In this document: positions 3,001 to 9,000 of the stretch, piece after piece
How the letters are laid out: the number at the start of each line of letters is the position of its first letter
Numbering within the stretch: the first letter of the stretch is position 1
Virus record (IMG/VR): IMGVR_UViG_2541047850_000007
Span: 1-10,146 of that record
Strand: one strand, 5' to 3'
Length of the DNA stretch: 10,146 bases
Source of the DNA: a virus
Taxonomy: Duplodnaviria > Heunggongvirae > Uroviricota > Caudoviricetes
Made by a program: the position numbers

Positions 3001-6000
3001 AATATCGGTTTGTTACTGGCAATGCTTGGAAAGTTTGATATTTCGTTACGGTGCACCATTGAAAATGCCACAGATGCATTAAATGCTATAAAGAAAGCGA
3101 ATACTGATTTAAATCGGGGATAAATAATCATGAGAACATATTTATCTGGCTTGACTGCCAGCGGTTATGCACACCCCCAAATTATCCCCGGCGCTATTTA
3201 TCTGGATAAGAACGGTAACAGAGTAACGGTAAAAGAACTGATGTTTGACCGTGTGTATTTTATCCGTGATGGCTATTCATTTCTTAGTTCGCTGAACGTG
3301 GAGATCTTTATTAGCAGATTCAGGCGGGAAATCCCGCTTTCCAGAAATAACCATGTGTCATGTATGGATGTTGATAAAAAACTACAGGAACTAAAAAACA
3401 TGATTGCCGCGTGGAGAGAGCAGAAATGAAAAAAGCGCCAAATTTAAAACACCAGCCACGTGACAAAATGACGGAAGTCATCATTTTTGCGGGTAGTGAT
3501 GCGTGGGCACATGCGAAGCAGTGGCAGGAACAGGACGGGCGACTGGCTGGCGATAACGTGCCTCCTGTCTGGCTTGGAGAGCAACAACTTGCCGAACTGG
3601 ACAACCTGCAAATCGTACCGGACGGACGCTATCGCGTGCGTCTCTATCAGGCGGGGTTATTGCGTCCGGGGCTTGTTAATACCATCGGGCAGAAACTGGC
3701 AGCGGCAGGTGTCAGGGATGCTGATTATTACCCTGAAGGAATGCACAGCCAGAAACGGGAGAACTGGCGCGAATATCTGGAACGTGAGCGGGGAGAGCTG
3801 ACGGAAAAGAAAAAGGTAGTTGAACTGCCTGTAAAGAAAAAAGAGCGGGTAAAAGACGATAACGCTTCATCACTGGCGCTTAACCAGATGGGAGCAAGTC
3901 AACGCGGCGAAGTTCTCCTGGCACATTATGGCGGTGAACTGGCGATTCATGCCGACTCTGACACTGTTCACCATTACAACGGCGTTGTATGGGAGCCAGT
4001 ACAGGATAAAGAATTACAGCGAGCTATGGCGCAGATTTTCATTGATGCGGAGATCAGCTATTCGCAGAACGCCATTAAATCGGCGGTCGATACCATGAAG
4101 TTAAGTTTGCCTGTAATGGGGAATACAGCCCGTAACCTGATTGGATTCAGTAACGGGGTATTTGATACCAGAACAGGTAATTTTCGGGAGCATAACAAAA
4201 ACGACTGGTTGTTAATTGCCAGTGAATTACCTTTCAGCCCACCAGCAGAGGGGGAAACGCTGGCAACACATGCGCCGAATTTCTGGAAGTGGTTACGCCG
4301 TTCGGTGGCTGAGAATGACCGCAAGGCGGATCGCGTACTGGCTGCATTATTCATGGTGCTGGCGAACCGGTACGACTGGCAGTTATTCATTGAGGTAACA
4401 GGTCCAGGGGGAAGTGGTAAAAGCGTGATGGCGGAGATTTGCACCATGCTGGCGGGTAAGGCTAATACAGTATCAGCGAGCATGAAGGCGCTGGAAGATG
4501 CAAGGGAACGCGCGTTAGTGGTTGGCTTTTCGCTGATTATCATGCCGGATATGACCCGCTACGCTGGTGATGGGGCGGGAATTAAGGCTATTACAGGCGG
4601 TGACAAGGTGGCAATCGACCCAAAACATAAAGCCCCATATTCAACGCGTATCCCGGCAGTAGTGCTGGCGGTTAACAATAACGCTATGTCATTCAGTGAC
4701 CGCAGTGGGGGGATCTCGCGACGTCGGGTGATATTCAATTTTTCGGAAGTTGTACCGGAGAACGAACGCGATTCAATGCTGGCGGAAAAAATAGAAGGTG
4801 AGCTGGCGGTAGTGATTCGTCATCTGCTTACACGGTTTGCTGACCAGGACGAAGCCAGACGCCTTTTATATGAGCAGCAGAAATCAGAAGAAGCTCTCGC
4901 GATAAAGCGTGAAGGTGATTCGCTGGTGGACTTCTGCGGCTATCTCATGGCGTCGGTAATGTGTGATGGTCTGTTAGTGGGTAATGCCGAAATTATTCCG
5001 TTCAGTCCGCGCAGGTATCTTTATCACGCCTATCTGGCATATATGAGGGCACACGGATTCGGTAAACCTGTAACACTGACGCGCTTCGGTAAAGATATGC
5101 CGGGGGCAATGGCGGAATATGGCAGGGAGTATATGAAACGGAAAACGAAGCACGGTTTGCGTTCAAACGTGACACTGACGGAGGAATCAGAAGACTGGAT
5201 GCCATCATGTGTATCGGTCACTAATGACGATAGCAAAAATTAAACTTATGGAATAACTGTTCACCACTGTTCACCCTGTCATAAATATCTTTTGTATCAG
5301 TATGTTATAGGGTGAACAGTTATTTATGAACTGTTCACCAAACTATTCACTGTTCACCTTTTTGATTGTTTATTGAGCTTCAAGGGTGAACAGTGGTGAA
5401 CAGTTGGTGAATAGTTTTTGTGAAACTGTTCACCCCTTAACATTATGAATTAAAAGATAAAATATCAAAAGGTGAACAGGTGAAGGGTTAAAACGCAAAA
5501 ATTTTAATTTACTGCTGTGAGATAAAGCCTATGACAGCGAAGCACACAAAAAAATCACAATCGCACGCCCTTGATTTGACGGAACACTGGTTAAGGGTGT
5601 CGATAAAAATCATCGACCGCAACGCCGGGGAAGGATACGCGAAAGCACATCCCGACCTGATAAGCGCATTCATGACCACGGCGGCGGCAAACTTTGCCAC
5701 GCTGACAGAACGGGAGATTGCCGAAGCGGAACAGGTAACAACCATCAACGTTAAAACCGGAGAGGTGGAATCATGACAGCACAGATAGCCGCTTACGGGC
5801 GGCTGGTGGACGACCCGCAGGTAAAACAGACCAGCAAGGGCACACCGATGACGCTGGCGCGTATGGCGGTATCGTTGCCATGTAGTCAGGCGCAGGATGG
5901 ACAGGCGACGTTATGGTTATCGGTCATCGCATTTGGCAAACAGGCCGACTTCCTGGCTAAACATCAAAAAGGCGATGTTGCCAGCGTATCCGGCACGATG

Positions 6001-9000
6001 CAGGTAAGCCAGTGGACCGGACAGAACGGAGAAACGCGGCAGGGCTGGCAGGTTATCGCAGACAGCGTAATCAGTGCCCGCGCGGCACGTCCAGGCGGGA
6101 ACAGACGCAAAACCACAGGCACACAGGGTAATCAGCCACCAGCGGGAGGCGATGACCCTTACGGTGATGATATTTCGTTCTGAGGGGGTGACGATGGTAC
6201 ATGACCGCATAGCGGAGGAACTGGAGGCGAAAGGCTTTTACCGGAGGGCGGCGGCGCGATGGGGTGAAGTCATGCAGCTGGTGGAGACAGACAAGGAACG
6301 GCATCACATCACGATGCGACGGCTGGAATGTTCAAGGAAGGCACAGAGGGCACCGGAGCCGCCGGATAATTTCGGAGACCTGAAAAAGGCAGTCGATCGC
6401 ACTTATGCCGAAATGGGTATAGATGGTGCTGGTGATGAAATATGGCGCAATTACCAGGACAGCTAATCAAACAGCCGGAGAAATCCGGCTTTTTTTGCAC
6501 CAGTTGAAACGGTATGGCGCATTACCGGGTTTTCGTCACGGTCAGGCATAGTTACTATCTGAAACAAACAGACACAACAGAGGAAAAAAACAATGCCGAT
6601 GAAATTTGATGAGATATTAAAACAGCGTGATAAATACCATGCTGACAACATGGAGACGATGAGCATCAATGATTACCGCGCATTCCTGGAGACGGGCGCA
6701 CTGATTGAAAAGGATCAGCATGGTTTTGTGAGATGTGCTCTATCCGGTGAAATGCTGGCGGTAAATCCTGAACAGATAGATGCATTGATAGAATTTCTGA
6801 AAGAGATCAGAGACTGAGCCAGCACACAGCACACATAGCCGGAGCAATCCGGCTTTTTTGCGCCCAAAAAAAGCCCGATAAGGTCAGAGGGTTCTTATCG
6901 GGCTTTTGCATATGAGGTTTTTGGATGCACTGGCGTTCGTGATCGGGATAATCATTTCATAATTTGCAACATAACTCAATATCATTGCATAAAATGCAAT
7001 TCTGATTATAATCAGGACTGGATAAACATCCAGTTATGATTTTTTTAGTCGAAGAGGAATTTCTTACTATGGCTGAAGAGAAAAAAGGCGGTGTTTCGGT
7101 GTACATAAGCCCCGAAATCGTGGAGGTGCTCAAGCAGCGCCACAAAAAAAACTATGAAGCTGGCGTTGCGGCTGGACTGGATCCGCTGATGACGCCGGAG
7201 CCGTCGATAGGTTCACTTGTACGCTCTTATTTACTTGCGGCGCTTGGGATGCATAAAAATTATGGGGGTGAATAATGGCAGGCAAAGCAACGGCACTTAA
7301 CACTAACCAGCTTTTCATGTACCTGAATCGCGGGGATATTGCGGATTTTAAATTCAGCCCTCTGTTTACCACGCTGTTTTTCCCGAACGTGGCGACATTC
7401 AGCACGCAAAACATCATGCTGGATACCCTGGACATTGAAGAAGTCACCATGTCGGCGTTTTGTTCGCCTATGGTGGGTAGCCAGGTTCAGCGCGATAAAG
7501 GGTACGAAACCAGCACAATCAAACCTGGCTACATGAAGCCAAAGCACGAAATCGATCCAACGAAAACCATCATGCGCATGGCTGGAGAAGATCCGGCACA
7601 GCTTAACGACCCTACCTATCGCCGTATGCGCCTGATTACTGGCAACATGCGCCGCCAGATAAACGCCATTAAGGCACGCGTGGAATGGCTGGCGGTGAAT
7701 GCGGTAACGACCGGAAAAAACATCATTGAGGGCGAAGGCATAGAACGCTATGAAATCGACTGGAAAATACCGGAAAACTGCATCATAGAGCAGGCCAAGG
7801 GTAAAAAATGGTCCGAGCAGGATAAAGACATGCACGACCCAATCTATGACATCGAGCTTTATGCTGATCAGGCTGGTTGCCCCGCAAACGTCATGATTAT
7901 GGGCGCTGAGGTATGGCGCACATTACGCAGCTTTAAAAAATTCCGTGAGCTGTACGATCTTTCCCGTGGTTCAGAATCCGCCGCCGAACTGGCCTGTAAA
8001 AACCTGGGCGAAGTGGTGAGCTTTAAAGGCTATCTTGGTGATCTGGCCCTTATCGTCTATTCCGGCAAATACACTGACAGCGATGGTACCGAAAAATATT
8101 TCCTTGAGCCTGATTTGCTGGTCCTGGGTAACACCAACAATAAAGGGCTGGTGGCCTATGGTGCGATTATGGAACAGGAAGCGGTAAGAACGGGCGCAAC
8201 GCAAAACATGTTTTACCCGAAAAACTGGATTGAAGACGGCGATCCGGCGATTGAGTACGTGCAGACACACAGCGCACCGCAGCCTGTTCCGGCAGATATT
8301 CGCAAATTTGTTACCGTCAAAATTGGTTAACGGTGGATTCTATGAACACTCCATACATTGAGTTATTTGCAGGCAGTCAGCAGGTATCAACGACGCTGGT
8401 ACATTTTGCCGCTGATGCTGGCGTTATTCAGGAATTTACCCCGCTGATGCTGGCGGACAATGGCGAGTTTAAGCCGTGGGATGGTCAGGAATCTGGCAAG
8501 GCTGTTTATCTGACCTCGTACCCCGTTGACACGTCGACGCAGAAATCAGCACAGTGCTATAAGACGGGGATATTCAATATCGCCGCCGTTAACTGGCCTG
8601 AGAGCGTCGACACCGATGCGAAAAAATGCGCCGCCTTTGCGGGTTCTGGCGTATCCGTTCAGCCGCTGGCCCGATAAGCAGGGGGAACGATGGCAACGAA
8701 TGAAAGCATCATGGCGCTACCGCTGGCGAGTAAATTTAAAGCCGAAGCGCGGGCAATGGCTGACAGAGGGTTATCAACCTACGAGGCCGTATATCAACTC
8801 AACAAACTGGAAGAACAGGACAAGCCGCGCGCTGATGCGATTATGGCGCTTCATGAACATAACGACTATCAGCCGCTGTTACGTGCAATGGCAAACGTGC
8901 CATGTATTAGCGTCGATAATGCTCGTGAAATCCTGAACATGACCATAGAGCAGGAGCGCCCAAAGGTTGCACCAGAGCTTACCGCAGCCTTTGAAAACTT

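What the first reader, a model, noticed from the sequence alone, without database searches (positions are those of the whole stretch)
5773..6183. Element-encoded SSB-like protein with acidic tail
The 136-aa protein has a clear SSB-type OB fold and a C-terminal DDPYGDDISF tail resembling the host SSB interaction tail DFDDDIPF. A satellite-encoded SSB could support the element's own replication or compete with host SSB for tail-binding partners.
Basis: partly seen in the sequence, partly recalled or inferred. Interest (0 to 1): 0.5.

Follow-up and report, generated by a model that had tools for sequence, protein, structure and literature searches.

The report
SSB gene of a phage satellite
This is a genuine, already annotated single-stranded-DNA-binding protein gene in the replication module of a well-known E. 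coli phage satellite (an EcCICFT073-type PICI), so it is ordinary apart from a common natural tail variant that copies the classic ssb-113 mutation of the host protein.

Summary
ORF 5773-6183(+) encodes a 136-aa SSB-family protein: OB fold at residues 1-101, a disordered linker, and an acidic tip ending in Phe. It matches Pfam PF00436 and TIGR00621 above their cut-offs, and every top structural match is a bacterial SSB. RefSeq already names it SSB (WP_000126687.1).

It lies about 290 nt downstream of the satellite's iteron origin (10 copies of ACTGTTCACC), in a unit orf81-ssb-perC that ends in a terminator-like hairpin. The element is an EcCICFT073-type Gram-negative PICI. The prototype EcCICFT073 carries the same gene (3 aa differences), and cf-PICIs carry it too. 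One paper already files PICI SSBs under replication.

Two details are new. The family tail is ...PYGDDIPF, whereas this allele has ...DDISF, the same Pro-to-Ser change as host ssb-113 (impaired binding to the chi subunit). Yet the allele occurs in thousands of assemblies and at least three element architectures. Also, the gene is kept (dN/dS about 0.05-0.28) next to three unrelated replicase types.

Most likely role: an auxiliary replication SSB. Published rep+ori constructs replicate without it, assuming the clone lacked ssb. No experiment has tested its function. Interest is low.

The parts
5773..6183 (+). ssb: 136-aa SSB-family protein. OB domain at residues 1-101, disordered basic/Gly-Gln-Pro linker at about 102-126, acidic tip DDPYGDDISF at 127-136. 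The stop codon is included.
   Evidence: RefSeq WP_000126687.1
6175..6177 (+). Ser135 codon TCG. Relatives have CCG (Pro) on otherwise identical tail DNA, so this is a single C-to-T transition. It is the same substitution as E. coli ssb-113 (P176S).
   Evidence: PMC3045619 and PMC3632105
5759..5768 (+). Shine-Dalgarno-like GGAGAGGTGG, with its GAGG core 7 nt upstream of the ssb ATG.
   Evidence: read directly from the sequence
5531..5776 (+). orf81: conserved hypothetical protein (PHROG 1231, no Pfam match). Its stop overlaps the ssb start (ATGA). An 81-104-aa relative directly precedes ssb in most related elements seen; in L028-L030 a further 101-aa ORF lies between them.
   Evidence: AF2 gives only a low-confidence helical hairpin
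5256..5480 (.). Putative origin of replication: 10 copies (8 exact, 2 with one mismatch) of the 10-nt iteron ACTGTTCACC in both orientations, within AT-rich DNA between the primase gene and orf81.
   Evidence: 0.46 matches expected by chance in the whole window; 0 of 200 shuffles reached 11; layout as published for GN-PICI origins (PMC6092414)
3426..5243 (+). Replication initiator: D5_N / DUF5906 / Pox_D5 primase-helicase (pri-rep). The start is taken from the RefSeq annotation; the mechanical ORF begins at GTG 3411.
6194..6466 (+). PerC-family regulator, the last gene of the orf81-ssb-perC unit.
   Evidence: (PF06069, E=3.9e-43)
6473..6496 (+). Terminator-like hairpin AGCCGGAgaaaTCCGGCT followed by TTTTTT.
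   Evidence: (dG -14.3 kcal/mol, z=-3.8, 0 of 200 shuffles folded as well)

Best explanation
The gene encodes a functional SSB-family protein that belongs to the replication module of an EcCICFT073-type phage-inducible chromosomal island. After the helper phage induces the island (AlpA-dependent), the island's own primase-helicase opens the iteron origin just upstream. The island then supplies its own SSB to coat the exposed single strands, at a time when the induced helper phage and the SOS response also draw on host SSB. Through its acidic C-terminal tip the SSB couples the coated DNA to host replication proteins such as the chi subunit of Pol III, DnaG and PriA. It is an auxiliary factor, not an essential or replicase-specific one. 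In this allele the tip is ...DDISF rather than ...DDIPF, so partner recruitment is probably weaker while ssDNA coating is unaffected. What is shown: the fold, the family membership, the position next to the origin, purifying selection, and the distribution. What is inferred: ssDNA binding itself, the oligomeric state, the timing of expression, partner binding, and the effect on replication.
For: SSB family and fold. Three of the four ssDNA-stacking aromatics of E. coli SSB are kept (W54->W48, F60->F54, W88->W81), and all three are invariant in 35 relatives (reference sequence verified). Position: about 290 nt downstream of 10 iterons, same strand as the primase, closed by a terminator-like hairpin. 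The same position directly after the replicase and ori holds in every related element inspected. Purifying selection: OB-domain dN/dS is 0.05-0.28 with dS up to 0.8, and the tail peptide is kept across 6-7 synonymous changes in 10 codons. The gene is not tied to one replicase: it follows D5_N/DUF5906, AAA_25 RepA-type or DUF927 proteins. The CFT073 island has a nearly identical SSB but unrelated iterons. Published work: the rep gene plus ori alone drive plasmid replication in E. coli (PMC6092414), which fits an auxiliary role, assuming the clone lacked ssb. PMC10111431 places PICI SSBs in the replication category because they colocalise with mapped origins. Distribution: a match in 1543 of 5426 complete E. 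coli genomes, with up to 6 copies per genome.
Against: No experiment on this protein was found in six PICI or satellite papers checked. Replication can proceed without it, so its benefit is unproven. Trp40 and His55 of E. coli SSB are not conserved (Cys37 and Leu49 here), so the binding mode and the tetramer state could differ. The ISF tip matches a substitution that cripples host SSB function. That sits awkwardly with a role that depends on partner recruitment. However, non-Pro tips occur in 32 of 73 related short SSBs.
Confidence: 0.6

Rival explanations
1. Hub hijacker or competitor. The satellite SSB's main role is to redirect or titrate host SSB-interacting proteins (chi, PriA, RecO, RecQ, ExoI, RecG) away from host or helper-phage DNA. 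That would favour the island or interfere with the helper. Tip variants (IPF, NIPF, ISF) would tune which partners are captured.
For: The family consensus tip ...PYGDDIPF shares its last five residues with host ...DFDDDIPF and is strongly conserved at the protein level. The linker is short and polymorphic in length (136, 140, 141 and 149 aa forms). Classical PICIs do interfere with their helpers (PMC6092414).
Against: This allele carries the substitution that impairs chi binding in host SSB, yet it is one of the commonest alleles. Published interference by EcCICFT073 is attributed to packaging redirection according to the abstract of PMC6739421, and that paper never mentions an SSB. cf-PICIs that carry the same gene do not block their helpers (10.1101/2022.09.08.507074).
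Confidence: 0.15
2. Defence-related role. As a non-host SSB it either shields the island's single-stranded intermediates from host immune sensors and nucleases, or it is itself sensed by SSB-triggered systems such as Retron-Eco8 or DARNA. Either way it would shape which hosts the island can use.
For: Phage SSBs are documented triggers of Retron-Eco8 and DARNA (abstracts of PMC13402713 and 10.64898/2026.02.22.705581). This SSB is only 26-31% identical to host SSB, so it would count as 'foreign'.
Against: Nothing in the window links it to a defence locus. It sits in the replication module, not among accessory genes. PADLOC was not run. No specific evidence was found.
Confidence: 0.1
3. The ISF allele is a partly disabled passenger. 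The Pro-to-Ser change is a slightly deleterious or neutral mutation that is frequent only because it hitch-hikes in heavily sequenced clones (O157:H7, O55:H7, O145).
For: It is a single CCG-to-TCG transition on otherwise identical tail DNA. The listed exact 70-nt matches are dominated by O157:H7 and related STEC strains. Only 5 of 120 cluster representatives end in ISF.
Against: The identical protein sits in at least three architectures: D5 primase with E-type capsid (the window), AAA_25 with E-type capsid, and AAA_25 with a cf-PICI HK97 packaging module. It also occupies at least three integration sites. ISF also occurs on other OB backbones (P0003, P0022, P0023). The OB domain of ISF alleles has dN/dS 0.05 (window against O157). 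Non-Pro tips are common in the wider clade.
Confidence: 0.1

Closest known systems
SSB of the prototype Gram-negative PICI EcCICFT073 (WP_000126698.1, E. coli CFT073) and of cf-PICIs of the EcCIEDL933 type
   Same: Length is the same (136 aa), and 133 of 136 residues are identical to the CFT073 protein. The cassette is the same: primase, small orf, ssb, perC, then capsid and decoration genes. The identical or near-identical protein occurs in cf-PICIs with HK97 capsid, portal and TerL modules.
   Different: Three residues differ (I52M, W92Y, S135P), so CFT073 has the canonical DDIPF tip. The iterons and integration site also differ. SSB is not mentioned in the main text of the six PICI or satellite papers checked.
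E. coli chromosomal SSB (PDB 1eqq/1eyg)
   Same: Both have an OB fold. Stacking residues W54, F60 and W88 are conserved. Both have a disordered linker and an acidic tip ending ...DDI-x-F.
   Different: Identity is only 26-31%. The L23 loop is shorter, with Cys in place of Trp40, and Leu replaces His55 at the tetramer interface. The linker is about 25 aa rather than about 55 aa, and it is basic. The penultimate residue is Ser instead of Pro. This is not a recent capture of the host gene.
E. coli SSB-113 mutant protein (P176S)
   Same: The substitution is identical, at the penultimate residue of the tip, giving ...DDISF.
   Different: SSB-113 is a temperature-sensitive laboratory mutant of an essential host protein. 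Here the change is a common natural allele of an accessory element gene, in a clade where 32 of 73 tips are non-Pro. Its effect on partner binding in this sequence context is untested.
SSBs of conjugative plasmids (F-type, NCBIfam PRK13732)
   Same: Both are extra SSBs encoded by mobile elements and carried alongside the host's own SSB.
   Different: The match to the plasmid subfamily is very weak (23.9 bits against a cut-off of 265). By established knowledge (not tested here), F-type SSBs are close relatives of host SSB and are expressed from the leading region on entry. This protein instead sits beside a vegetative origin.
Short SSBs next to primase-helicases or relaxases on small enterobacterial replicons (Klebsiella NZ_CP033626.1, Enterobacter OW969629.1, Sodalis pSG2)
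   Same: Identity is 54-72%. The SSB sits directly after the replication or mobilisation protein, and in Klebsiella the order small orf, ssb, perC is also the same.
   Different: The element types differ (small circular records, one of them mobilisable), and so do the linkers and tips.

Membership tests
Bacterial SSB family (PF00436 / TIGR00621) | Sequence match to the family profile above the curated cut-off | tested here: met
   PF00436 60.6 bits against 26; TIGR00621 57.3 bits against 53.95
Bacterial SSB family (PF00436 / TIGR00621) | OB-fold barrel (beta1-3, helix, beta4-5) resembling solved SSBs | tested here: met
   AF2 model: strands at 2-11, 16-19, 25-36, 44-54, helix at 55-62, strands at 69-82 and 88-101, pLDDT about 80-90. 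The top 50 Foldseek PDB matches are all SSBs; the best is 5xgt_A at E=1.9e-9.
Bacterial SSB family (PF00436 / TIGR00621) | Aromatic residues that stack on ssDNA (E. coli W40, W54, F60, W88) | tested here: inconclusive
   W54, F60 and W88 are conserved (W48, F54, W81, invariant in 35 relatives), and W40 is replaced by an invariant Cys37. That is three of four; binding itself was not measured.
Bacterial SSB family (PF00436 / TIGR00621) | Homotetramer (or dimer) assembly | not testable with these tools
   Only monomer prediction is available. His55 of E. coli SSB corresponds to Leu49 here.
Bacterial SSB family (PF00436 / TIGR00621) | Disordered linker followed by an acidic tip ending in hydrophobic-Pro-Phe (D-D-D-[IL]-P-F) | tested here: inconclusive
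   The linker is disordered (pLDDT below 50 for residues 103-136). The acidic tip and the terminal Phe are present. The family consensus is ...DDIPF, but this allele has Ser in place of Pro.
Bacterial SSB family (PF00436 / TIGR00621) | Binds single-stranded DNA | not testable with these tools
   This needs EMSA or fluorescence titration with purified protein.
Gram-negative PICI, EcCICFT073 type (the host element) | int, alpA, then pri-rep, all co-oriented, with an origin of two iteron sets flanking AT-rich DNA immediately 3' of the rep gene | tested here: met
   int 1-1239, alpA 1562-1858, primase 3426-5243; iterons at 5256-5480; criteria taken from PMC6092414
Gram-negative PICI, EcCICFT073 type (the host element) | Roughly 10-15 kb, no lysis or tail genes, a lambda-type capsid (E) plus decoration pair, often PerC | tested here: met
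   Capsid E at 7275-8330, decoration protein at 8333-8677, Nu1-like TerS at 9311-9853, PerC at 6194-6466. The element spans about 10-11 kb between cspD/yljB and clpS in strain 23CRST038. It is syntenic with EcCICFT073.
Gram-negative PICI, EcCICFT073 type (the host element) | Induction and high-frequency transfer by a helper phage | not testable with these tools
   Shown experimentally for EcCICFT073 (PMC6092414) but not for this element.
Capsid-forming PICI (cf-PICI) | [quoted passage not shown] | tested here: not met
   The window has only an E-type capsid, a decoration protein and a Nu1-like TerS, with no portal, protease or TerL. The criteria come from 10.1101/2025.02.11.637232. The same SSB does occur in true cf-PICIs elsewhere (L016-L022).

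The most novel reading that the evidence does not exclude
PICI SSBs are not just spare host-type SSBs but tunable 'hub adaptors'. Natural tip alleles would decide which host SSB-interacting proteins are brought to satellite DNA. These alleles include the widespread ssb-113-like ...DDISF of the O157:H7, O55:H7 and O145 islands and of this window. The ISF form would coat the island's single strands while deliberately not recruiting host exonucleases or recombination mediators, or it would act as a dominant poison for helper or host replication forks.
Probability: 0.1. Interest if true: 0.55.

Novelty: already known. Interest (0 to 1): 0.22.

Why it matters
Satellites such as PICIs spread virulence and defence genes, and their replication modules are usually described as just 'primase plus origin'. 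This work shows that a dedicated SSB is a conserved part of that module, under purifying selection, in about 28% of complete E. coli genomes. It stays there whichever replicase the island uses, which makes it an obvious but untested accessory replication factor. The common natural ...DDISF allele offers a ready-made comparison (S135P against wild type) for asking how much SSB tip-mediated partner recruitment matters outside the essential host protein. None of this changes current understanding; it fills in a detail.

Tried and rejected
1. The genome-contig scan with the single protein returned only 3 loci: one true relative in E. albertii and two 28-29% matches in Gemmatimonadales. It was too shallow for a cross-species context survey, so I used exact-protein look-ups instead.
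2. The structure prediction for orf81 gave a low-confidence helical hairpin (pLDDT 61, pTM 0.33). I did not run a fold search because matches to such a model would be meaningless. orf81 remains of unknown function.
3. My first guess at the CFT073 coordinates of the PICI hit a lambdoid prophage at icd. The island was found upstream, between roxA and phoQ.
4. The Rfam scan of the window at gathering thresholds found nothing.
5. The sigma-70 scan found no plus-strand promoter between 5100 and 6700, so the promoter that drives orf81-ssb-perC is unresolved. It could be read-through from the primase gene or a non-consensus promoter.
6. I considered and rejected recent capture of the host ssb gene (identity is only 26-31%), a gene taken from the helper phage (no phage record above about 35% identity among 50,697), and an F-type plasmid SSB (23.9 bits against a cut-off of 265).
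7. I first read the ISF tip as probably defective and then softened that view, after finding non-Pro tips in 32 of 73 related short SSBs.
8. PADLOC was not run.
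Full report
**Observation**

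The ORF is at the coordinates given: ATG at 5773, TGA at 6181-6183, 136 codons. A good Shine-Dalgarno sequence (GGAGAGGTGG, 5759-5768) precedes it. Its start overlaps the stop of an upstream 81-aa ORF by four bases (ATGA), so the two genes look translationally coupled.

The protein matches Pfam PF00436 (E=1.7e-16, 60.6 bits against a cut-off of 26) and NCBIfam TIGR00621 (57.3 bits against 53.95). It also matches PHROG 44, 'single strand DNA binding protein' (E=1e-39). By sequence alone it finds 26 solved SSB structures, the best being Thermotoga 1z9f at 6e-11, with E. coli 1eqq at 1.5e-6.

An AlphaFold2 model built on 35 relatives gives a confident OB barrel for residues 1-101 (pLDDT about 80-90) and a disordered stretch at 103-136. 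The 50 best Foldseek matches in the PDB are all bacterial SSBs.

**Comparison with host SSB**

It is identical over all 178 residues to PDB 1eqq_A.

| Feature | E. coli SSB | This protein |
|---|---|---|
| Identity | reference | 26% by BLASTP, 31% by MAFFT |
| Stacking residue W54 | Trp | W48, invariant in 35 relatives |
| Stacking residue F60 | Phe | F54, invariant in 35 relatives |
| Stacking residue W88 | Trp | W81, invariant in 35 relatives |
| Stacking residue W40 | Trp | Cys37, invariant, in a shortened loop |
| Tetramer-interface residue | His55 | Leu49 |
| Linker | about 55 residues | about 25 residues, basic |

This is an old, separate SSB lineage, not a recent copy of the host gene.

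It was not taken from a helper phage either. No record among 50,697 phage genomes has a relative above about 35% identity. It is also not an F-type plasmid SSB (23.9 bits against a cut-off of 265).

**The tail**

Among 120 cluster representatives of close homologues, the C-terminus is ...PYGDDIPF in 63 and ...PYGDNIPF in 25. Only 5 have ...PYGDDISF. The family tip is therefore canonical: its last five residues are the same as in host ...DFDDDIPF. The window's allele has Ser in place of the penultimate Pro, through a single CCG-to-TCG transition on otherwise identical tail DNA.

This is the substitution of E. coli ssb-113 (P176S). That mutant is temperature-sensitive for replication, hypersensitive to DNA damage, and impaired in binding the chi subunit of Pol III (PMC3045619, PMC3632105).

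The allele is not a sequencing oddity:
- The exact protein has been seen on at least 1000 contigs, and is listed in 11,601 index blocks.
- The exact 70-nt tail is present in 330 of the 722 complete E. coli genomes that match it, including O157:H7, O55:H7 and O145 strains.
- The identical protein occurs in three different element architectures and at least three integration sites.
- ISF also appears on other OB-domain backbones.

One caveat applies to the ssb-113 analogy. In a search of 1.84 billion representative proteins (6743 hits at E<=1e-3), 73 of the best 150 have an acidic tail ending in an aromatic residue. Among those 73, the penultimate residue is Pro in 41, Gly in 11, Ser in 4, Ala in 4 and something else in 13. 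Non-Pro tips are thus a normal state in this clade of short SSBs, most of which probably belong to mobile elements. I therefore regard weaker partner binding by the ISF allele as likely but unproven.

**Surroundings**

The window is an EcCICFT073-type Gram-negative PICI. Its genes, in order:

| Coordinates | Gene |
|---|---|
| 1-1239 | integrase |
| 1562-1858 | AlpA |
| not mapped to window coordinates | small Icd-like and DUF4222 genes |
| 3426-5243 | D5_N/DUF5906 primase-helicase |
| 5531-5776 | orf81 |
| 5773-6183 | ssb |
| 6194-6466 | PerC |
| 7275-8330 | lambda E-type major capsid |
| 8333-8677 | head decoration protein |
| 9311-9853 | Nu1-like small terminase |

These assignments rest. 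In E. coli 23CRST038 the element is 98.6% identical to the window and lies between cspD/yljB and clpS.

The 288-nt gap between the primase gene and orf81 holds 10 copies of ACTGTTCACC (8 exact, 2 with one mismatch) in both orientations within AT-rich DNA. Only 0.46 matches are expected by chance in the whole window, and no shuffle reached the observed number. This is the published layout of PICI origins: iterons flanking an AT-rich stretch immediately 3' of the rep gene (PMC6092414). A hairpin followed by a T-run lies right after perC (6473-6496; dG -14.3 kcal/mol, z=-3.8) and closes the unit orf81-ssb-perC. No Rfam family matched anywhere in the window.

**Related elements**

The prototype EcCICFT073, between roxA and phoQ in CFT073, has the same cassette: primase, an 85-aa orf, a 136-aa SSB, PerC, then capsid c1499 and decoration c1500. 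Its SSB differs from the window's at three residues (I52M, W92Y, S135P) and ends in DDIPF. Its iterons are unrelated (CTGTCTACC type).

The SSB always sits directly after the replicase and ori region. The replicase, however, can be any of several kinds:
- D5_N/DUF5906 primase-helicase
- AAA_25 RepA-type helicase
- DUF927 protein
- in Klebsiella, a zinc-binding primase-helicase

The downstream packaging module can be of the EcCICFT073 type or a full cf-PICI module with HK97 capsid, protease, portal, connector, HNH, TerS and TerL. More distant relatives (54-72% identity) also follow replication or mobilisation proteins on small enterobacterial circles.

Matches to the gene occur in 1543 of 5426 complete E. 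coli genomes, with up to six copies per genome.

**Selection**

Across eight alleles, the OB domain has dN/dS of 0.05-0.28 with dS up to 0.8. The ten-codon tip keeps its peptide despite 6-7 synonymous differences between the two tail DNA types. The linker varies by insertions and deletions, giving forms of 136, 140, 141 and 149 aa. That is typical of a disordered spacer.

**What it most likely does**

The simplest reading is an auxiliary replication SSB. On induction, the island's helicase-primase melts the origin and the island's own SSB coats the exposed strands. Its tip links the coated DNA to host replication proteins.

Three points fit this reading:
- Its position beside the origin is conserved.
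- It is independent of replicase type.
- It is under purifying selection.

The published finding that the EcCICFT073 rep gene plus ori alone sustain plasmid replication in DH5alpha (PMC6092414) makes it helpful rather than essential, assuming the cloned fragment lacked ssb. PMC10111431 already groups 'Primase, SSB and DUF5906' of GN-PICIs as replication genes because they colocalise with mapped origins.

ssDNA binding, oligomeric state, expression timing, partner binding and any effect on replication are all inferences. I found no experimental work on this protein in the PICI or cf-PICI papers checked.

**Rival explanations**

- Competitor or hijacker of host SSB partners. The canonical family tip makes it possible, but the ISF tip weakens it for this allele. 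cf-PICIs that carry the gene do not interfere with their helpers.
- A defence-related role. Phage SSBs trigger Retron-Eco8 and DARNA, but nothing in the window points this way.
- The ISF allele as a hitch-hiking, partly disabled variant. Its spread across architectures and the low dN/dS argue against this.

**Novelty and score**

RefSeq annotates the gene as SSB (WP_000126687.1). It is present in the experimentally studied prototype PICI, and the literature already classes it as a replication gene. It is already known.

Three modest additions come from this work: the ssb-113-like natural tip allele and its wide distribution; the demonstration that the SSB cassette is shared between classical PICIs and cf-PICIs and follows any of several replicases; and the coupled small ORF of unknown function. 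Interest is low (0.22).

Noticed in passing
window 5256-5480: Ten copies of the iteron ACTGTTCACC (8 exact, 2 with one mismatch), in both orientations, within AT-rich DNA between the primase gene and orf81. This is the likely origin of replication. One further exact copy lies inside the primase gene at 3963-3972.
   Followed up: yes
window 5531-5776: orf81 (PHROG 1231, no Pfam match) overlaps the ssb start by ATGA. An 81-104-aa relative directly precedes ssb in most related elements inspected, though a 101-aa ORF intervenes in L028-L030. Homologues are restricted to Escherichia, Shigella and Citrobacter. AF2 gives only a low-confidence helical hairpin, so its function is unknown; it may be an SSB or replisome partner.
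   Followed up: partly
L016 7001-14411 and L017-L022 (compare L007-L015): The same or a near-identical replication half (DUF4222, replicase, small orf, SSB, PerC) is joined either to an EcCICFT073-type packaging region (E capsid, decoration protein, Nu1) or to a complete cf-PICI module (HK97 capsid, S78 protease, portal, HNH, TerS, TerL). Classical PICIs and cf-PICIs of E. coli therefore appear to exchange modules by recombination.
   Followed up: partly
L005 7152-8552; L025 1178-3316; window 3426-5243: Three unrelated replication initiators occupy the same slot upstream of the ori and ssb cassette: an AAA_25 RepA-type helicase, a DUF927 protein and a D5_N/DUF5906 primase-helicase.
   Followed up: partly
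L025-L027 4967-5413: In the DUF927-type elements a ProQ/FinO-domain gene (RNA chaperone family) sits directly between ssb and perC, and an antiterminator-Q gene lies further downstream.
   Followed up: no
window 5881-5883 (Cys37 of the SSB): An invariant Pro36-Cys37 pair occupies the position of the ssDNA-stacking Trp40 of E. coli SSB, within a shortened L23 loop. This could mean a modified DNA-binding mode.
   Followed up: no
SSB linker, residues about 110-126 (window 6100-6150); alignment A2 columns 110-145: The linker is polymorphic in length among alleles (136, 140, 141 and 149 aa). A recurrent insertion of about 13 aa, KGQQGQATDALNRAK, looks helix-prone rather than Gly/Pro-rich.
   Followed up: no
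window 6194-6466 and 6473-6496: A PerC-family regulator follows ssb (E=3.9e-43 to PF06069), and a strong terminator-like hairpin lies directly after it. PerC homologues of PICIs are reported to activate, silence or leave unaffected LEE virulence genes (PMC6092414, PMC11773190).
   Followed up: partly
window 1869-2810 (+): This 313-aa mechanical ORF is probably not a gene. RefSeq annotates small genes in this stretch of the near-identical genome: a YlcI/YnfO-family gene on the minus strand (window 2228-2407) and an Icd-like cell-division inhibitor.
   Followed up: partly
plasmid records CP061267.1 (161612-162019) and NZ_CP031350.1 (35987-36394): Two large E. coli 'plasmids' (171 kb and 187 kb) encode a protein 100% identical to the window's SSB. 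Either a PICI is integrated in a plasmid or the assemblies are wrong.
   Followed up: no
window 9311-9853: The island has a Nu1-like small terminase. The slot between the 137-aa orf and the last small orf holds a 144-aa hypothetical protein in EcCICFT073 (L035 22660-23094). The packaging-redirection gene therefore differs between otherwise syntenic islands.
   Followed up: no
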